64,000 nt of DNA from Escherichia coli. GTDB taxonomy: Bacteria; Pseudomonadota; Gammaproteobacteria; Enterobacterales; Enterobacteriaceae. Location of the stretch: assembly GCF_003991155.1 (NCBI RefSeq), contig NZ_CP031294.1. One strand, written 5' to 3'. Below the pieces are notes generated by a model, which saw nothing but the letters and a program-made list of their open reading frames with translations, was not told the origin of the DNA and ran no database searches. Positions 5,432 to 53,656 of this stretch are shown here, piece after piece. Made by a program: the position numbers and the translations under genes. Within the stretch, counting starts at the first letter, position 1. Each line of letters starts with the position of its first letter.

Positions 5432-8400
5432 TCAGTTACTTGTTGCCCCAACAGTACCTGCAAATTTCAGCCATTGACCTGACGGACTTCTATTACTACG
5501 GTAATGATAAACGAGGATTGCGTTTGTAACTCCACCGTAGTCAGCTTTATGTGACGTTGTTAAACGAATTGTATAATCACCGTTAGGTAGATTAAAAACT
5601 TCGATTATAGATTCTGCTAATTCTACAGCACCAAATCCCGTTATATTGTTGATACTGCCAGCATTGAATCCCATAGCATCGCCAAAGCCAATCCAATAAC
5701 TTTTGCTAAACGCCCCATTTGATTTTAGGTGGCTAATGAATGTGGACAAACTCATGCCCATATCCCCACCTGAAACAGAGGAAGTTCGCACAGTCATACT
5801 TGGAAGAGCACTGCTCTTCACATAGGAACTTAGAAGGTTTGTTACCTCTGTTTTCGTATAGGCATTAAGGTTAGCCGCAGTCAAAGTAATATCGGCAGAG
5901 CCATCAAACGCCACACCAGCAATTTTCCTTGCTGTCTGCAATTTTGTGGCAGTGGCAGCATTACCAGTAGTGTTCTGATTACCGGTTGTATTCACACCAG
6001 GTATTGAATCCTTAGCGGTATATACCTGCGCCCACGCAGACCATGCCGCATCAGTGGTATCTCTTCGGGAGCGAATGAAAACCGGCGCATGTGCACCGCT
6101 CGTACCACTCCAGCCAATAAGCAACTCGCCCTCACCAGCAGCACTCGCACCTTTCATGTGCAATACGTTGCCATACGTGGTCGGGTAGCTATTGCTGTAC
6201 GCCTCGTACATTTGAATGCCAGCAGTACCTTGAGCAGAACCGCTTAACGCCGTAACTCGGCCACGAGATACCAATGTATTAATGTTGATATCGCCTGAGC
6301 CATCAAACTTAACACCATTGATGTTTCTCGCTGTTTGCAACTTCGTAGCTGTTGAAGCATTACCGTTCAAACTACCATTTACGCCACCAGTCACATTTAG
6401 TCCATTACCAATTGATACAGCACCGCTGGTATTATTAATTGTAATAGGTCGCAAACCGTTCCATGAACCTAATGTGTCTCCTGATGCTGTTAGCATGAAA
6501 TATGTGTTCGATCCATCATTACGGATAAAGAACCCAAAGCTACCGTAAGCAATGCGGAAACCATTTGCATATTTTGAAATGATCTCGCCAGAAGATGTCA
6601 AACCTCCAGATAATGTACCACCGGTAAGAGGTAATGCACCGACATCAGAGGCTGTTGGTTTGTTTTTCGTGTTATATACTCTTCGCCATCCTGGAGAATA
6701 ATCTGTGCCATTAAATACATAGATAAACTCCGCATTAGTGAGAGCACCAGAGACACTCGTCGTTGTGGCCGTTGTTATACGGATCGTATAATTGTTTGAG
6801 CTACTACCGTTATTAAATACCTCTATAACAGCTCCTGCCAATGGAATAACGCCACAACCAGTTTCACTATTTGGTATGGTTGCACTATTGGCATAGGCCC
6901 ACGCACATCGAGCAATCCATGACTTTGTGTTAAATGCTCCATTATTTTGCAATAACGTCACTAACTGTGCTGTTGTTATTGCTCCGCCATTACTTCCTGT
7001 AGTTAACCAACCAGTAGGAGATGCCGGGCAACCTATATTTGCTGGCGACAAGGAAATATTTGCCGAGCCGTCAAACGACACCCCATTAATAGTACGCGCA
7101 GTCTGCAACTTCGTAGCAGTAGCCGCGTTGCCCGTTGTATTCTGATTACCAGTCGTATTAACACCTGGCAAATTAATATTCGCAGTACCATCAAAGCTCA
7201 CGCCGCCGATAGTTCTTGCCGTCTGAAGTTTTGTAGCAGTTGCAGCATTACCAGTGGTGTTCTGATTACCCGTAGTATTTACACCTGGAAGGTTGATATT
7301 TGCAGAACCGTCGAAACCAACTCCACCGATAGATCTTGCCGTCTGCAATTTCGTGGCTGTACTTGCATTACCATTCAATGAACCAGTTAATCCACCTGTA
7401 ACAGACAACGGACCTGAAACTGTTCCTCCGGTTGTTGGCAGTGCTCCAATATCTGATGGTGTAGGTTTCTGATGTGAGCTATACATCGTATAAACAACAC
7501 CATCGGTAACGCTGGAAGGCTTACTCGCTGAATATGTTGGCGAGGTATAAATAGAAACTGTCGCATTTGCAGTACAATCCCAATGGATATTTACACGAGT
7601 CGCATAATTGCCAATCTCAACGTAAATATCATATGTATCGCCGGATGTGTTGATCCAGGCGAAATTCGTTAATCCGACAGCTGTACGCTTCCACAAAGCA
7701 CCTGTAATCCCTTTGGGGTTTCCATTGCCTGCTCGTAGAACCAGTTCTGAAATGCCTGCCTGATGTGGGGAGCCGACGTTGTAACCAGCGCCACCAATCA
7801 ATGCGATGTAAACGATGGAACTCGCTTGTGGCATGGTAACCGTAGCCAGTTTGAACCACCCTGCCCCGCCAGAGAAAGACATCGTTACTGAATTTAAAGT
7901 ACCAATATCTTTCGGCGTTAATGTGATATCCGCAGTCAGTGCTTTACCGTTAACTTTTCGGTTAGATGGCACCCTGCTATTCGCATTGTCATTGGCTGCT
8001 TTAACTGCTTTTGGCGTTGCGGCCAGCGATTCACTGGTGCTGTCGACAGCACTGCTAAGTTTCACAACACCTTTAGTTGTAAGGCTTGCGTCTTCCATCG
8101 CAACTGCACCGGCAATCTCTTCAGCACGATCAGCAGCAGCTTCCGCACGGGTCGCAGCGGATTCAGCAGCAGTTTTGCTCTGAGATGCTGCCGTCGCACT
8201 GCCTGCCGCCTCTGTTGCTTTCGTGGATGCCGTCGTGGCACTGCCCTTCGCTGCTGACGCCTGTCTGGTCGCCTCATCTTTTGAAGCAGACGCAGATGAT
8301 GCCGATGACGCCGCCGAACTGGCGGACGATGCGGCAGCCGTTTTTGAGGATTCTGCGCTGGTTTCCGACGCTTTCGCGTTCGTTTCGGATGTCTTCGCTG

Positions 8401-46340: not shown

Positions 46341-46417
46341 TGTTAAAGTCAGAAGGGGTTGTGTCTATATGAAAATGCCCAGCGTGTTGCCGGGCATTGC
46401 GAACAGAGGTTGTTTAA

Positions 46418-48451
46418 TTACTTAACCTGGTGGCCTGGTTTAGCACCAGCATCCGGGCTTAACAGGAAGATATCTTTCCCGCCGGGGCCAGCAGCCATCA
46501 CCATGCCTTCGGAGATACCGAAGCGCATTTTACGCGGAGCCAGGTTAGCCACCATAATGGTGTGACGACCAATCAGTGCCTGTGGGTCTGGATAAGCAGA
46601 ACGGATGCCTGAGAAGACATTACGCTTTTCACCACCGAGATCCAGTGTCAGACGCAGCAGTTTGTCAGAACCTTCGACAAACTCCGCGTTTTCAATCAGC
46701 GCCACACGCAGGTCAACTTTGGCGAAGTCGTCAAAGGTGATGGTTTCCTGAATCGGGTCGTCAGCCAGTGGGCCAGTTACCGGTGCAGCTGTGGCTTTCA
46801 CTTCTTCTTTGGATGCTTCCACCAGTGCTTCCACCTGTTTCATATCGATACGGTTATACAATGCCTTGAACGGATTCACTTTATGGCCCAGCAGCGGTTG
46901 CTGGATACCATCCCAGGTCAGTTCTGTATTCAGGAATGCTTCTGCACGTTCAGTCAGTTTCGGCAGTACCGGTTTCAAGTACGTCATCAGCACGCGGAAC
47001 AGGTTAATGCCCATAGAGCAAATCGCCTGCAGATCGGCATCGCGTCCTTCCTGCTTCGCCACCACCCACGGAGCCTGTTCATCGACATATCGGTTAGCCA
47101 GGTCAGCCAATGCCATGATTTCACGGATAGCTTTACCAAATTCGCGGCTTTCCCATGCTTCGCCAATCACTTCAGCGGCATCAGTAAAGGTTTTGTACAG
47201 TTGCGGGTCAGCCAGTTCGCTTGCCAGCACGCCGTCAAAACGCTTGTTGATAAAGCCTGCATTACGGGAGGCCAGGTTAACCACTTTGTTCACGATATCG
47301 GCATTCACGCGCTGAACGAAATCCTCCAGGTTGAGATCGATATCATCAATGCGCGAAGAGAGTTTCGCAGTGTAGTAGTAACGCAGGCTGTCGGCGTCAA
47401 AATGATTCAGCCAGGTGCTGGCTTTAATAAAGGTGCCGCGAGACTTGGACATCTTCGCGCCGTTCACCGTCACATAGCCGTGAACAAACAGGTTGGTCGG
47501 CTTGCGGAAGTTGCTGCCTTCCAGCATGGCAGGCCAGAACAGGCTGTGGAAGTAAACAATATCTTTACCGATGAAGTGGTACAGCTCGGCTGTGGAGTCT
47601 TTCTTCCAGTATTCATCGAAGCTGGTGGTATCGCCGCGCTTGTCGCACAGATTCTTGAAGGAACCCATGTAGCCAATCGGCGCGTCCAGCCAGACGTAGA
47701 AATATTTGCCCGGCGCGTTCGGAATTTCAAAACCGAAGTAAGGCGCATCGCGGGAGATATCCCACTGTTGCAGGCCGGATTCAAACCACTCCTGCATTTT
47801 GTTCGCCACCTGCTCCTGCAACGCACCGCTGCGGGTCCATGCCTGCAACATTTCGCTGAAAGAGGGCAGATCAAAGAAGAAGTGTTCGGAATCACGCATT
47901 ACCGGGGTAGCGCCAGAAACCACCGATTTCGGCTCGATCAATTCAGTCGGGCTATATGTTGCGCCGCAGACTTCACAGTTATCGCCGTATTGATCTGGCG
48001 CTTTACATTTCGGGCAGGTGCCTTTCACAAAACGATCCGGCAGGAACATGCCTTTTTCCGGGTCGTACAACTGAGAGATAGTGCGGTTTTTAATAAAACC
48101 GTTCTCTTTCAGGCGAGTATAGATAAGCTCAGACAGCTGGCGGTTCTCTTCGCTGTGCGTCGAGTGATAGTTGTCATAGCTGATGTTAAAGCCTGCGAAA
48201 TCAGTCTGGTGTTCCTGACTCATTTCGCCAATCATCTGCTCCGGTGTGATACCAAGCTGCTGTGCTTTCAGCATGATCGGCGTACCGTGGGCATCGTCGG
48301 CACAGATGAAATTAACCTCGTGGCCGCGCATTCGCTGGTAACGAACCCAGACATCAGCCTGGATGTGCTCCAGCATATGGCCGAGGTGGATTGAGCCGTT
48401 AGCGTACGGCAGCGCGCACGTCACCAGAATTTTCTTCGCGACTTGGGTCAT
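46418..48451 (-). CDS. metG: methionine--tRNA ligase
   Basis: Near-full-length match by recall to enterobacterial MetG: HIGH-type motif [16 protein letters not shown], zinc knuckle CPKC...C..C, C-terminal tRNA-binding domain; start set at MTQVAKK (ATG 48451), the ORF-track start is an upstream artefact. Confidence 0.95.
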
Positions 48452-48608
48452 AGTAGGCATTACTTCTTTGTAGTGAAAAGGGGCTTGATAGTAACAAAAT
48501 GGCCTTATGTCTGCCATGTGATAACAGCATTTCTCATAAATGATTAAATGTCGTAGCTGGAGTACACTACAAGGCGACAATTGCGCAAATTAAAATAAAG
48601 GAGACGGG

Positions 48609-49709
48609 ATGAGCGAGTCCAAATCGCCGGATGCCCTGAGAGCAATGGTAGCCGGTACGCTGGCTAATTTTCAGCACCCAACCCTGAAACACAACCTGAC
48701 TACGCTTAAAGCGTTACACCATGTTGCGTTGATGGATGACACACTGCATGTCGAACTAATCATGCCTTTCGTGTGGAATAAGCCTTTTGAAGACCTGAAA
48801 GAGCAATGTAGTGGTGATCTGCTCCGTATCACTGGCGCAAAGGCTATTGACTGGAAGCTGTCGTACAACATTGCCACGCTTAAGCGCGTCAAAAACCAAC
48901 CAGGCATTAATGGCGTTAAGAACATTATCGCCGTCAGCTCAGGCAAGGGCGGCGTGGGTAAATCCTCCACGGCGGTAAACCTGGCACTGGCGTTGGCTGC
49001 TGAAGGTGCGAAAGTTGGTATTTTGGATGCCGATATCTATGGTCCATCAATTCCAACCATGCTGGGCGCGGAAAACCAACGTCCAACCTCACCTGACGGT
49101 ACTCACATGGCACCTATCATGTCTCATGGCCTGGCAACCAACTCTATTGGTTATCTGGTCACCGACGACAATGCAATGGTGTGGCGTGGACCGATGGCCA
49201 GCAAGGCGCTGATGCAGATGTTGCAGGAAACTCTATGGCCTGATCTGGACTATCTCGTTCTCGATATGCCGCCGGGCACTGGTGATATTCAGTTGACGCT
49301 GGCGCAGAACATTCCTGTAACTGGTGCGGTTGTGGTAACTACGCCGCAAGACATCGCGCTGATCGATGCGAAGAAAGGCATTGTGATGTTCGAAAAAGTC
49401 GAAGTGCCGGTACTGGGTATCGTCGAAAACATGAGTGTGCATATTTGCAGTAACTGCGGTCATCACGAGCCAATTTTTGGCACCGGTGGCGCACAGAAAC
49501 TGGCCGAGAAATACAACACGCAGTTGTTAGGCCAAATGCCACTTCATATCTCTCTTCGTGAAGATCTGGATAACGGAACACCAACCGTTATTAGTCGTCC
49601 AGATAGCGAATTTACGGCTATTTATCGTGACCTCGCAGATCGCGTTGCCGCCCAAATGTATTGGCAAGGTGAAGTAATACCTGGCGAAATCGCATTCCGC
49701 GCAGTGTGA
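48609..49709 (+). CDS. mrp: Fe-S cluster carrier ATPase Mrp/ApbC
   Basis: Walker A SGKGGVGKS, CxxC motif (CSNCGHH), conserved divergent arrangement with metG as in enterobacterial chromosomes. Confidence 0.93.
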   Translation: MSESKSPDALRAMVAGTLANFQHPTLKHNLTTLKALHHVALMDDTLHVELIMPFVWNKPFEDLKEQCSGDLLRITGAKAIDWKLSYNIATLKRVKNQPGINGVKNIIAVSSGKGGVGKSSTAVNLALALAAEGAKVGILDADIYGPSIPTMLGAENQRPTSPDGTHMAPIMSHGLATNSIGYLVTDDNAMVWRGPMASKALMQMLQETLWPDLDYLVLDMPPGTGDIQLTLAQNIPVTGAVVVTTPQDIALIDAKKGIVMFEKVEVPVLGIVENMSVHICSNCGHHEPIFGTGGAQKLAEKYNTQLLGQMPLHISLREDLDNGTPTVISRPDSEFTAIYRDLADRVAAQMYWQGEVIPGEIAFRAV

Positions 49710-49745: not shown

Positions 49746-50135
49746 CTACATCACGGGACAATCATCAAACTCGCCACTTCTTGCGTCGTTGATAATGTGA
49801 GTGATCACACCAAACACGGCATTGCTGCCCGTGCATCCATCGTCATCCTTTGGCAATGCTTCCTTCTTACCGGTTCTTAAATCCTCCAGATGCTGACGTG
49901 GGTACTTCCGGTATCTTTTTACGCGATATTCCCCATCCAGAGCGCATACAAGCAGAGAACCATCAACCGGGGTAAGTGAGGAATCGACCACCAGCAATGC
50001 ACCCTGTAATATTCCCTCACGATGATGACTATCAGCTGCCCTCATGAAGTAGGTCGCTGAAGGATGTCTAATTATCTGCTGATCAAGAGAAATACGGCTC
50101 TCAGCATAATCCGCCGCAGGAGAAGGGAAGCCCAT
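49746..50135 (-). CDS. UmuD'-like (pre-cleaved UmuD / HumD-type) S24 peptidase-fold protein
   Basis: Begins M-GFPSPAADY, i.e. at the position of the UmuD self-cleavage product; lacks the N-terminal arm; divergent C-terminal tail. Confidence 0.7.
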   Translation of the reverse strand: MGFPSPAADYAESRISLDQQIIRHPSATYFMRAADSHHREGILQGALLVVDSSLTPVDGSLLVCALDGEYRVKRYRKYPRQHLEDLRTGKKEALPKDDDGCTGSNAVFGVITHIINDARSGEFDDCPVM

Positions 50136-50233
50136 AGCGTTTTCACCTCAGAGTACTGTTTATCCATACAGTATACATTAAAGATGCTTGAAGTGTGCAA
50201 TAGCGCGATGCTTTGCGCTCGTCTGGTGGCGCG

Positions 50234-50485
50234 TTATTTTTTGGCTATATCTTCTTTCTGATATACCGGATCGTTTCCTTTTGGCAGCAGGAGGCTTAAC
50301 TGCCGGTAGTGCCGTAGCCGTTCCATGAAATAGGTGCGCAGGTTCTCAGGTTGCTCACGGGCTACCTGTTCCGCTATGACGGGTATGTTCAATCGCTCTT
50401 TGTAGGCAACCCCCCTGGCAGCCAGGTCAACGTTAACTTTATTCCTTTCTTCCTGGCTTTTGGCTGCTATGTTCCAGTTGCTCAT
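50234..50485 (-). CDS. hypothetical protein
   Basis: 83 aa ORF. Confidence 0.4.
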
Positions 50486-50837: not shown

Positions 50838-52396
50838 ATGAAAATGACAAGTATTCAACAACGTGCAGAGCTTCATCGCCAGATCTGGCAAATTGCTAAC
50901 GATGTCAGGGGTTCAGTCGATGGATGGGATTTTAAGCAGTACGTTTTGGGCGCGCTTTTTTACCGTTTTATCAGCGAAAATTTTTCCAGTTATATTGAAG
51001 CCGGTGATGACAGTATCTGTTATGCGAAACTGGATGACAGCGTAATTACTGATGACATTAAAGACGATGCCATCAAAACTAAAGGCTACTTCATCTACCC
51101 CAGTCAGCTTTTCTGCAACGTAGCTGCGAAAGCAAATACTAATGACAGACTGAATGCAGATTTAAACAGCATCTTCGTTGCTATCGAAAGTTCTGCTTAC
51201 GGTTATCCTTCAGAAGCTGACATCAAAGGTTTGTTTGCTGATTTCGATACCACCAGTAACCGCCTGGGTAACACCGTTAAAGATAAAAATGCCCGCTTGG
51301 CTGCGGTTCTGAAAGGGGTTGAAGGGCTAAAACTTGGTGACTTCCATGAACATCAGATTGACCTGTTCGGTGACGCCTATGAGTTCCTGATTTCTAACTA
51401 TGCGGCGAATGCCGGTAAGTCCGGCGGCGAGTTCTTTACACCGCAGCACGTCTCTAAGCTGATTGCACAACTGGCTATGCACGGGCAGACCCACGTTAAC
51501 AAAATCTACGACCCGGCAGCAGGCTCCGGTTCGCTGTTGTTGCAGGCGAAAAAACAGTTTGATGACCATATCATCGAAGAAGGTTTTTTTGGTCAGGAAA
51601 TCAACCATACGACCTATAACCTGGCGCGTATGAACATGTTTTTGCACAACATCAACTACGACAAGTTTGATATCAAGCTGGGTAATACACTGACTGAGCC
51701 GCACTTCAGAGATGAAAAACCGTTTGATGCCATCGTTTCTAACCCGCCGTATTCGGTGAAATGGATTGGCAGCGATGACCCGACGCTGATTAACGATGAA
51801 CGTTTTGCCCCGGCTGGCGTTCTGGCCCCCAAATCCAAAGCTGACTTTGCGTTTGTATTACATGCGCTGAACTATCTTTCGGCCAAAGGTCGCGCTGCGA
51901 TTGTCTGCTTCCCAGGCATTTTTTACCGTGGCGGCGCGGAGCAGAAAATCCGTCAGTATCTGGTCGACAATAACTATGTCGAAACCGTGATTTCACTGGC
52001 ACCGAATCTGTTCTTTGGCACCACTATTGCCGTCAATATTCTGGTGCTGTCTAAACATAAAACGGATACCAAAGTTCAGTTTATTGATGCCAGCGAACTG
52101 TTCAAAAAAGAGACTAACAACAACATTCTGACCGATGCTCATATCGAACAGATTATGCAGGTATTTGCCAGCAAGGAAGATGTTGCTCATCTGGCGAAAT
52201 CTGTTGCGTTTGAGACTGTTGTCGCGAATGACTATAACCTGTCGGTGAGCAGCTATGTGGAAGCGAAAGATACTCGCGAAATTATCGATATCGCTGAGCT
52301 GAATGCTGAGCTGAAAACCACGGTCAGCAAAATCGACCAGTTGCGTAAAGATATTGATGCGATTGTTGCTGAGATTGAAGGTAGCGAGGTACAGGC

Positions 52397-52400
<4 letters not shown>
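50838..52400 (+). CDS. hsdM: Type I restriction-modification N6-adenine DNA methyltransferase subunit
   Basis: NPPY motif ([10 protein letters not shown]), AdoMet-binding motif, 520 aa; operon with hsdS and hsdR. Confidence 0.93.

Positions 52401-53656
<1,256 letters not shown>

What the first reader, a model, noticed from the sequence alone, without database searches (positions are those of the whole stretch)
49746..50135. Pre-cleaved UmuD' (HumD-type) gene without umuC nearby
The protein begins exactly at the position of the UmuD self-cleavage product (M-GFPSPAADY...) and lacks the N-terminal arm, as in the HumD of phage P1 that supplies an already active UmuD'. It has a divergent C-terminal extension and no adjacent umuC. 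A constitutively active mutagenesis co-factor carried on a mobile element could modulate host SOS mutagenesis.
Basis: partly seen in the sequence, partly recalled or inferred. Interest (0 to 1): 0.4.

Follow-up and report, generated by a model that had tools for sequence, protein, structure and literature searches.

The report
Known phage HumD (pre-cleaved UmuD') gene
This is an ordinary, intact copy of humD, the well-known phage gene for a ready-made UmuD' mutagenesis subunit, sitting behind an SOS (LexA) operator on an SSU5-like phage-plasmid of E. coli that has no umuC of its own.

Summary
Window 49746..50135 (minus strand) encodes a 129-aa protein starting M-GFPSPAADY. Its Gly2 aligns with Gly25 of E. 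coli UmuD, the first residue of UmuD'. An in-frame TGA five codons upstream rules out an N-terminal arm.

The protein matches NCBI's curated "HumD family" equivalog end to end (219.8 bits, cut-off 120). It is 91% identical to phage P1 HumD and 100% identical to the protein of phage-plasmid Cyrano/pLF82. A strong LexA box (50154-50173) overlaps the predicted -10. It is the only such box in 64 kb, and it is kept in P1 and Cyrano.

No umuC exists in the window or in a whole near-identical 109.6-kb plasmid. The element is SSU5-like, not P1-like. dN/dS against P1 humD is 0.05, so this is not a pseudogene.

Two corrections:
- The C-terminal "extension" is not divergent. EFDDCPV(M/I) is as conserved as the N-terminus.
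- The Ser/Lys dyad, present here, is relaxed across pre-truncated homologues and is not needed.

One untested side idea: the disordered acidic tail, seen only in the pre-truncated homologues (the five whose contexts were sampled lack an adjacent umuC), is a partner-docking peptide resembling the SSB C-terminal tip.

The parts
49746..50135 (-). humD coding sequence, 129 aa: UmuD'-like S24-fold protein without an N-terminal arm. S36 and K73 correspond to UmuD S60 and K97. Conserved C-terminal tail at aa 122-129, EFDDCPVM.
   Evidence: ORF. NCBIfam NF051876 HumD equivalog, 219.8 bits against a cut-off of 120, covering 1-129 of 129. 91% identity to P1 HumD and 44% to UmuD. 100% identity to phage Cyrano. 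dN/dS 0.05 against P1.
50148..50150 (-). In-frame TGA five codons upstream of the humD ATG. It excludes any longer, arm-bearing form.
   Evidence: Read directly from the sequence. The ORF listing starts the ORF at the first start codon after a stop.
50144..50149 (-). Shine-Dalgarno-like GAGGTG, 8 nt upstream of the ATG.
   Evidence: Read from the sequence. Identical in P1 (alignment A3).
50154..50173 (.). LexA (SOS) box. Gene-sense strand reads TACTGTATGGATAAACAGTA. It ends 18 nt upstream of the ATG.
   Evidence: Only match in 64 kb to TACTG(TA)5CAGTA at 3 or fewer mismatches, with 0 expected in 100 shuffles. It sits where P1's annotated LexA binding site lies. It is conserved in P1 and in Cyrano, although Cyrano's flank is unrelated.
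50170..50199 (-). Sigma-70-like promoter: -35 TGCACA at 50199-50194, 18-nt spacer, -10 TATACT at 50175-50170. The -10 overlaps the LexA box.
   Evidence: Consensus scan, 9 of 12 matches. This is a weak prediction on its own, since shuffles give 2.0 such sites per region. Its overlap with the LexA box is the meaningful part.
50234..50485 (-). hot, a homologue of the DNA polymerase III theta subunit, 83 aa. It lies directly upstream of humD on the same strand. P1's lxr gene is absent from between them.
   Evidence: Pfam PF06440 at 107.9 bits. NCBIfam theta at 97.6 bits. PHROG 1105. 89.9% nt identity to P1 hot. P1 gene order is hot-lxr-humD-phd-doc.

Best explanation
The ORF is an intact, selected copy of humD, the phage gene for a 'born-activated' UmuD' analogue. 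It is carried as cargo on an SSU5-like siphovirus phage-plasmid of E. coli.

Shown here:
- The protein has the UmuD' fold and begins at the residue that RecA-mediated self-cleavage would expose in UmuD.
- It has its own ribosome-binding site.
- A near-consensus LexA operator overlaps the -10 of its promoter.
- It has no cognate umuC anywhere on the element.

Inferred from the published work on P1 HumD (McLenigan et al. 1999, PMID 10559166; summarised in PMC7092418):
- In an undamaged lysogen, LexA keeps the gene off.
- When the SOS response is induced, HumD is made and dimerises.
- It joins the host's UmuC and RecA-ATP to form a Pol V-type translesion polymerase.
- This skips the slow RecA*-dependent UmuD-to-UmuD' cleavage step that normally delays mutagenic bypass.

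The likely benefit to the element is faster lesion bypass on its own DNA and the host's during SOS. The catalytic Ser/Lys pair that survives in this copy is most likely vestigial.
For: - Family assignment: HumD equivalog 219.8 bits, full length; PHROG 811 'UmuD-like'; PDB UmuD' E=6.7e-23. The AF2 core model has pLDDT around 80, and its best Foldseek hits are UmuD and UmuD' (8gmt, 1umu, 1ay9; TM normalised by target 0.73-0.74).
- Orthology: 91% aa identity to P1 HumD. Only humD plus its operator and hot are shared with P1 at the DNA level (85.6% and 89.9%).
- Pre-truncation: G2 aligns with UmuD G25, and there is an in-frame stop upstream. In 110 of 121 close family members a single residue (Met) precedes that Gly.
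- SOS control: a unique LexA box overlaps the predicted -10. It is conserved in P1, where it is annotated as a LexA site, and in Cyrano. CTG-N10-CAG boxes lie at -35 to -39 in 5 of 10 sampled distant loci.
- Orphan status: no UmuC homologue in the window or in the full 109.6-kb sister plasmid.
- Functional constraint: dN/dS 0.05 with dS 0.80 against P1.
Against: - Nothing was tested functionally for this copy. Partnership with host UmuC is extrapolated from P1 HumD, and I could not open that paper here.
- By my recollection of that paper, HumD is poorly expressed and complements well only from a high-copy plasmid, so its physiological weight is uncertain.
- The strictly conserved acidic C-terminal tail, absent from all 46 arm-bearing UmuD-like proteins examined, is not explained by a simple 'UmuD' substitute' model.
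- The promoter prediction is weak: 9 of 12 matches, with 2 such sites expected by chance in the region.
Confidence: 0.85

Rival explanations
1. HumD's main activity is carried by its conserved, disordered acidic C-terminal peptide (EFDDCPVM-COOH). The peptide would act as a docking or decoy motif for a host replication or repair protein, for example the pockets that bind the SSB C-terminal tip (...DFDDDIPF-COOH). HumD would then recruit or compete at stalled forks, rather than, or in addition to, simply replacing UmuD'.
For: - The tail is conserved at 0.95 mean identity. That equals the N-terminal motif and is well above the 0.50 of the active-site motif.
- It is present in most of the 60 pre-truncated homologues and in none of the 46 arm-bearing ones.
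- Distant members end in EFDDTPF, EFHDNLPF, EFDERPCI or EWDDLPVI. E. coli SSB ends in MDFDDDIPF.
- AF2 predicts the tail to be disordered, with pLDDT below 50 for residues 124-129.
- The five tail-bearing homologues sampled sit in phage contexts with no adjacent umuC.
Against: - The resemblance is a short acidic-plus-hydrophobic motif and could be coincidental.
- In the main clade the Pro is shifted by one position, and the terminal residue is Met or Ile rather than Phe.
- No binding or docking test was possible.
- The tail could equally serve UmuC binding, dimer contacts or protein stability.
- By my recollection of the P1 work, HumD complements UmuD' and binds UmuC and RecA filaments, which is enough to explain a function.
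Confidence: 0.15
2. It is an active S24 serine peptidase that works in trans. For example it might cleave host UmuD, LexA or a phage repressor during SOS, using the retained Ser36/Lys73 dyad.
For: S36 and K73 align with UmuD S60 and K97. Lys is kept in 118 of 121 close family members. Intermolecular UmuD cleavage is known, from my own knowledge.
Against: - The nucleophile position is Thr in 43 and Ala in 2 of 121 close relatives.
- Among the 25 more distant pre-truncated representatives in alignment A4, only one keeps both Ser and Lys at these two positions. Arm-bearing homologues keep Ser in 41 of 46 and Lys in 42 of 46.
- The GDSM motif is degenerate (ADSH here; mean conservation 0.50). That pattern indicates relaxed selection on catalysis.
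Confidence: 0.04
3. It is a decaying remnant of a umuDC operon, that is, a 5'-truncated pseudogene left after a rearrangement on the plasmid.
For: There is no umuC. The flanks are mosaic, with a captured chromosomal metG-apbC block on one side and hot plus a type I R-M system on the other.
Against: - dN/dS is 0.05 at dS 0.80 against P1.
- Close relatives cluster tightly at 126-130 aa (100 of the 120 listed protein clusters), with the same start in 110 of 121 aligned sequences.
- It has its own RBS and LexA box at a conserved distance.
- The match to the curated equivalog is end to end.
Confidence: 0.01

Closest known systems
Bacteriophage P1 HumD (AAQ14181; McLenigan et al. 1999, PMID 10559166)
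   Same: Both are 129 aa and 91% identical. They share the M-GFPSPAADY start, the S/K positions, the 4-aa insertion and the C-terminal SGEFDDCPV(M/I) tail. The LexA box lies at the same distance from the ATG, hot lies upstream, and neither has a umuC.
   Different: The host element is an SSU5-like siphovirus phage-plasmid, not the P1 myovirus. P1's divergent lxr gene between hot and humD is missing. P1's phd-doc addiction module downstream is replaced by an apbC-metG block.
E. coli UmuD' (processed UmuD, residues 25-139; PDB 1umu, 1ay9, 1i4v)
   Same: They share the fold and are 44% identical over the whole UmuD' span. The N-terminal GFPSPAADY motif is identical, and Ser60 and Lys97 are conserved in this copy.
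   Different: HumD is made directly by translation, not by RecA*-stimulated self-cleavage, and it is not in an operon with umuC. It has a 10-aa acidic C-terminal tail and a 4-aa loop insertion that UmuD lacks. The GDSM motif is degenerate. It scores below the cut-off of the UmuD subfamily model (87 against 110).
HumD-type proteins of other temperate phages (N15 gp26, phiKO2 Gp23, HK140 and HK639 'UmuD-like')
   Same: They are full-length, pre-truncated, orphan homologues at 64-71% identity, and are members of the same NCBIfam family.
   Different: They are more distant in sequence and are carried on linear phage-plasmids or integrated lambdoid prophages, often near the att/integrase end.
Plasmid and ICE UmuD homologues (MucA, RumA, ImpA type)
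   Same: They are mobile-element-borne S24-fold accessory subunits of Pol V-type polymerases under LexA control (own knowledge; PMC7092418).
   Different: Those carry an N-terminal arm, need RecA*-mediated cleavage, and sit in an operon with their own UmuC-type polymerase. Among the diverse arm-bearing homologues in alignment A4, Ser is kept in 41 of 46 and none has the acidic tail. MucA, RumA and ImpA themselves were not individually aligned here.

Membership tests
HumD family (NCBIfam NF051876, equivalog) | Whole-protein score above the curated cut-off, with end-to-end coverage of the model | tested here: met
   219.8 bits against a cut-off of 120; residues 1-129 on profile positions 1-129 of 129.
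HumD family (NCBIfam NF051876, equivalog) | Translation starts at the residue that corresponds to the first residue of UmuD'; no N-terminal arm and no cleavage site | tested here: met
   M1-G2 aligns with UmuD C24-G25. There is an in-frame TGA five codons upstream. The same start occurs in 110 of 121 close relatives.
HumD family (NCBIfam NF051876, equivalog) | Orphan gene: no cognate umuC-type polymerase gene on the element | tested here: met
   tblastn with E. coli UmuC gives a best E of 0.27 in the window and 0.46 in the full 109.6-kb sister plasmid. No such gene is annotated.
HumD family (NCBIfam NF051876, equivalog) | LexA operator in the promoter region | tested here: met
   Box at 50154-50173, unique in the window, with 0 expected. 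It aligns with P1's annotated LexA site.
HumD family (NCBIfam NF051876, equivalog) | Conserved C-terminal EFDDCPV(M/I) tail. This is a feature I derived here from the family alignment, not a published criterion. | tested here: met
   The window protein ends in EFDDCPVM. Of the 120 close relatives, 81 end in EFDDCPVM and 11 in EFDDCPVI. Mean conservation of the tail is 0.95.
HumD family (NCBIfam NF051876, equivalog) | Functionally replaces UmuD' in SOS mutagenesis; dimerises; binds UmuC and RecA filaments | not testable with these tools
   Known for P1 HumD only (PMID 10559166, from my knowledge; cited in PMC7092418). Inferred here from the 91% identity.
UmuD proper (autoproteolytic Pol V subunit, NCBIfam NF007621) | Score above the curated cut-off; an N-terminal arm with a Cys/Ala-Gly cleavage site; operon with umuC | tested here: not met
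   87 bits against a cut-off of 110. No arm. No umuC.
Peptidase S24 (Pfam PF00717) as an active self-cleaving peptidase | Strictly conserved Ser nucleophile and Lys base, with a substrate loop | tested here: inconclusive
   The domain match is above the cut-off (37.9 bits against 23.3) and S36/K73 are present. There is no substrate loop, and the Ser position is Thr or other in a third of close relatives and in most distant pre-truncated ones.
LexA / phage CI-type repressor | N-terminal DNA-binding domain in front of the S24 domain | tested here: not met
   The protein is 129 aa and consists of the S24 core only. The LexA equivalog scores 27.2 bits against a cut-off of 110.95 and matches only the C-terminal domain.
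Anti-phage defence system component (PADLOC) | Match to any defence-system protein model | tested here: not met
   No PADLOC family matches HumD or Hot at E of 0.01 or better.

The most novel reading that the evidence does not exclude
The phage-borne, pre-truncated UmuD' proteins (orphan, without an adjacent umuC, in the five sampled contexts) carry an almost invariant, intrinsically disordered acidic C-terminal peptide: (E)FDD-x-P-x-hydrophobic-COOH, with variants ending in DDTPF or NLPF. No arm-bearing UmuD-type protein examined has it. It may be a short linear docking motif that mimics the SSB C-terminal tip (DFDDDIPF-COOH). HumD could use it to reach SSB-partner pockets at stalled forks, or to bind a non-cognate host UmuC. 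On this reading the tail, not the vestigial protease site, distinguishes phage HumD functionally from UmuD'.
Probability: 0.15. Interest if true: 0.55.

Novelty: already known. Interest (0 to 1): 0.15.

Why it matters
It adds little as a discovery. HumD has been characterised since 1999. NCBI's pipeline already names this exact protein "HumD family translesion DNA polymerase" on many E. coli plasmids.

The modest points of interest are three:
1. The P1-type humD-plus-operator cassette also travels on SSU5-like phage-plasmids. These are common in clinical and animal E. coli, so a pre-activated Pol V cofactor is widely available to SOS-induced cells and could raise stress-induced mutagenesis.
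2. The family shows a clean evolutionary signature: once the self-cleavage step is bypassed genetically, the catalytic motif relaxes.
3. A strongly conserved C-terminal peptide was seen only in the pre-truncated, phage-type proteins. It has no assigned function and would be cheap to test.

Tried and rejected
- **Pseudogene or truncated remnant.** Rejected on dN/dS 0.05, the conserved length and start, and the gene's own RBS and operator.
- **Hidden longer ORF with an arm.** Rejected because of the in-frame TGA at 50148-50150.
- **umuC elsewhere.** I searched the window and the complete sister plasmid by tblastn and by annotation and found none.
- **Trans-acting peptidase.** Judged unlikely from the S/T/other variation at the nucleophile position.
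- **Defence-system component.** No PADLOC match.
- **The element is P1.** Rejected. The structural module is SSU5-like (81.8% nt identity to SSU5), and only humD and hot match P1.
- **Tail-less 'pre-truncated' homologues as a third class.** The two informative cases (P0222, P0219) are followed by umuC. In P0222 the similarity to UmuD continues upstream of the called start, which suggests a mis-called start rather than real truncation.
- **Primary papers.** I tried to read McLenigan 1999 (PMC94175) and Lobocka 2004 (PMC523184). Neither is held, so statements about P1 HumD biochemistry rest on my recollection and on secondary citations.
- **Structure model.** The AF2 model is only moderately confident (mean pLDDT 70). 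I used it only for the fold assignment and for the predicted disorder of the tail.
- **Docking the tail onto an SSB-partner protein.** Not attempted. The tool folds single chains, and only one job remained, so no positive control could be run.

Full report
**1. The observation**

The ORF at 49746..50135 is on the minus strand, starts with ATG and encodes 129 aa beginning MGFPSPAADYAESRISLDQQ. MAFFT against E. coli K-12 UmuD (fetched from NC_000913.3) places M1-G2 opposite C24-G25, which is the RecA-stimulated self-cleavage site. Identity over the UmuD' span is 44%. HMMER against PDB sequences gives the same register (UmuD' 1umu, E=6.7e-23, query 2-118 on chain 1-114).

The ORF cannot extend upstream. 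On the gene strand the sequence reads ...TGA GGT GAA AAC GCT ATG, with an in-frame TGA at 50148-50150.

**2. What it is**

- Pfam gives Peptidase_S24 (37.9 bits).
- NCBIfam gives the curated equivalog NF051876, "HumD family translesion DNA polymerase". The score is 219.8 bits (cut-off 120) over positions 1-129 of 129. The UmuD subfamily model stays below its cut-off (87 against 110), and LexA scores only 27 bits.
- PHROGs gives phrog_811, "UmuD-like protein". PADLOC gives nothing.
- tblastn against phage genomes shows 100% identity to phage Cyrano, 99% to CMS-2020a and 91-93% to P1, RCS47, SJ46 and D6. Identity is 64-71% to N15 gp26, phiKO2 Gp23, HK140 and HK639.
- Against the reference P1 record, the gene is the one annotated "humD; DNA repair; functionally complements E. 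coli UmuD'".
- In complete E. coli genomes the 1.3-kb region recurs on many plasmids of about 110 kb at 100% identity. PGAP already labels the protein "HumD family translesion DNA polymerase" or "S24 family peptidase".
- An AF2 model has a core pLDDT of about 80 and a mean of 70. Its best PDB matches by Foldseek are UmuD and UmuD' (8gmt, 1umu, 1ay9; TM normalised by target 0.73-0.74).

**3. The element**

The window is collinear at about 98% identity with plasmid pMB5646_2 (109.6 kb) and, for the humD-apbC-metG side, with phage-plasmid Cyrano. Cyrano is pLF82 of the adherent-invasive E. coli strain LF82, a productive SSU5-like siphovirus phage-plasmid (PMC9928086).

The 17.6-kb window segment 19443-37094, which holds the structural (head and tail) genes, is 81.8% identical to Salmonella phage SSU5. 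The rest of the sister plasmid carries RepB, ParB-type partition proteins and its own replication genes: dnaE, a 3'-5' exonuclease, primase, a DnaB-like helicase, ligase and a gp32-type SSB. It also carries nrdAB, thyA, dfrA51 and tRNAs.

So this is not P1. Only two short modules match P1 at the DNA level. One is humD with its operator (85.6% over 439 bp). The other is hot (89.9% over 228 bp). P1's order is hot-lxr-humD-phd-doc. Here lxr is absent, with 98 bp between hot and humD, and phd-doc is replaced by apbC and metG.

**4. No umuC**

tblastn with E. coli UmuC finds nothing in the window (best E=0.27). It also finds nothing in the four loci that tile the whole sister plasmid (best E=0.46). 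No Y-family polymerase is annotated there.

**5. Regulation**

A search for TACTG(TA)5CAGTA with up to 3 mismatches finds exactly one site in 64 kb, at 50154-50173, with 0 expected in 100 shuffles. On the gene strand it reads TACTGTATGGATAAACAGTA and ends 18 nt before the ATG. The three mismatches all lie in the central spacer.

The only promoter-like site on that strand is TGCACA, an 18-nt spacer, then TATACT. Its -10 overlaps the box. That prediction alone is weak.

The box aligns with P1's annotated "LexA binding site in the regulatory region of lxr and humD". Cyrano's upstream flank is otherwise unrelated, because similarity to the window stops at 50175. Cyrano still keeps a box (TACTGTATGTGTATACAGTA) at nearly the same distance from the ATG, three bases closer. 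Five of ten distant HumD-like loci that I sampled have CTG-N10-CAG at -35 to -39.

SOS control is therefore well supported by sequence. No terminator lies between hot and humD on the gene strand. Read-through from hot is therefore possible; this is an inference.

**6. Is it under selection?**

Against P1 humD, dS is 0.80, dN is 0.042 and dN/dS is 0.05. Of the 120 closest protein clusters, 100 are 126-130 aa long. In 110 of 121 aligned sequences a single Met precedes the Gly. This is a functional gene, not a remnant.

**7. The catalytic dyad and the C-terminal tail**

The criterion is not informative anyway.

In the close HumD clade the nucleophile position is S in 76, T in 43 and A in 2. Lys is kept in 118 of 121. 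The GDSM-equivalent segment is the least conserved part of the protein, with a mean of 0.50 against 0.80 overall.

I also searched 1.84 billion representative proteins, which gave 3416 hits at E of 1e-3 or better. I aligned 108 diverse sequences (A4) and split them by whether an N-terminal arm is present:

| Class | n | Ser60 position | Lys97 position | Acidic C-terminal tail |
|---|---|---|---|---|
| Arm-bearing | 46 | S 41 | K 42 | none |
| Pre-truncated | 60 | S 22, T 21, other 17 | K 39, R 11, other 10 | present in most |

This is the pattern expected if catalysis stopped being selected once the arm was lost genetically.

The last eight residues behave in the opposite way. EFDDCPVM is 0.95 conserved in the clade, equal to the GFPSPAADY N-terminus. 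More distant pre-truncated proteins end in related peptides: EFDDVPVM, EFDDTPF, EFDERPCI, EFDEIPCI, EWDDLPVI, EFHDNLPF and EFDINPCI. AF2 predicts residues 124-129 to be disordered, with pLDDT below 50.

I sampled five tail-bearing homologues (P0129, P0167, P0141, P0165, P0144). All lie in prophage or phage-plasmid contexts with no adjacent umuC. Two tail-less "pre-truncated" ones (P0222, P0219) are followed by umuC. At least P0222 looks like a mis-called start.

So the "divergent C-terminal extension" is really a conserved hallmark of the pre-truncated, phage-type proteins.

**8. Mechanism**

Shown: an intact S24-fold protein of UmuD' size, with a LexA operator and no umuC on the element.

Inferred: P1 HumD restores mutagenesis in strains that cannot make UmuD', forms dimers, and binds UmuC and RecA filaments. 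I recall this from McLenigan et al. 1999 (PMID 10559166). [quoted passage not shown]

At 91% identity the same activity is the most likely one. On SOS induction the phage-plasmid supplies UmuD'-like dimers that load onto host UmuC without waiting for RecA*-mediated UmuD cleavage. What the conserved tail adds is unknown.

**9. A speculative reading**

E. coli SSB ends in ...MDFDDDIPF (translated). HumD ends in ...GEFDDCPVM, and one relative ends in ...GEFDDTPF. Both tails are acidic, disordered and end in a hydrophobic residue with a free carboxylate.

SSB's tip is a well-known hub for replication and repair proteins (for example PMC5872125, listed). The HumD tail might be a docking or decoy peptide of that kind, or a handle for a non-cognate UmuC. 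I could not test this and rate it at about 15%.

**10. Verdict**

The gene is already known, curated and annotated. It is a routine humD on a different, SSU5-like phage-plasmid backbone. Interest is low.

Noticed in passing
window 46417-49709 (metG on the minus strand, about 46418-48450; apbC/mrp on the plus strand, 48609-49709): The phage-plasmid carries a complete methionyl-tRNA synthetase gene and its divergent neighbour apbC/mrp. Together they form a 3.3-kb block that is 88.2% identical in DNA to the E. coli K-12 chromosomal mrp-metG locus, with the similarity ending at the gene ends. It occupies the place where P1 has phd-doc. The block is shared with phage Cyrano and many plasmids of about 110 kb. 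It looks like a captured chromosomal segment from a related enterobacterium. A second MetRS on a phage-plasmid is unusual cargo.
   Followed up: partly
window 50838-about 57000 (hsdM 50838-52400, hsdS 52397-53656, hsdR beyond): A type I restriction-modification system lies next to hot-humD. P1's own annotation notes that sequences flanking its humD-phd-doc region are 96-98% identical to sequences flanking the EcoDXXI and R124/3 hsd loci. That suggests this neighbourhood is a recurrent insertion or exchange site for type IC hsd cassettes.
   Followed up: no
window 52949-52988 (inside hsdS): A perfect 12-bp tandem repeat in 3.3 copies (CTTACCGCTGAG) encodes (TAEL)3 in the central region of HsdS. 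From memory, the copy number of this TAEL repeat (2 or 3) sets the spacer length of the recognition site in EcoR124I and EcoR124II. The array could therefore be a specificity switch.
   Followed up: partly
window 50175 (junction); locus L003 around position 5963: Identity between the window and phage Cyrano runs from metG through humD and stops just upstream of the LexA box. Cyrano has Ead/Ea22-type genes there instead of hot and hsdMSR, yet it keeps its own variant LexA box. A recombination breakpoint sits right at the operator.
   Followed up: partly
window 50234-50485 (hot); sister plasmid NZ_CP103659.1 11555-15073 (dnaE) and 95376-95933 (3'-5' exonuclease): The element encodes a theta-subunit homologue (Hot) together with its own Pol III alpha (dnaE) and a 3'-5' exonuclease. 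An element-encoded alpha, epsilon-like and theta core is therefore conceivable. In P1, Hot is thought to act on the host epsilon subunit.
   Followed up: no
locus L011 4001-4390 (protein P0167): A distant HumD-like gene (37% identical to UmuD, tail ending EFHDNLPF) sits in another phage-plasmid that shares the window element's TacA/GNAT, MipZ and DnaB-like gene neighbourhood. It occupies a different position, between the MipZ module and the DnaB-like helicase, where the window's element has a GIY-YIG gene. Orphan humD-type genes seem to have been acquired more than once by this kind of element.
   Followed up: no
sister plasmid NZ_CP103659.1 97068-97544: dfrA51, a trimethoprim-resistant DHFR recently described in phage-plasmids (PMC12217456, listed), is annotated in the nucleotide-metabolism module of the near-identical plasmid, outside the window.
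   Followed up: no
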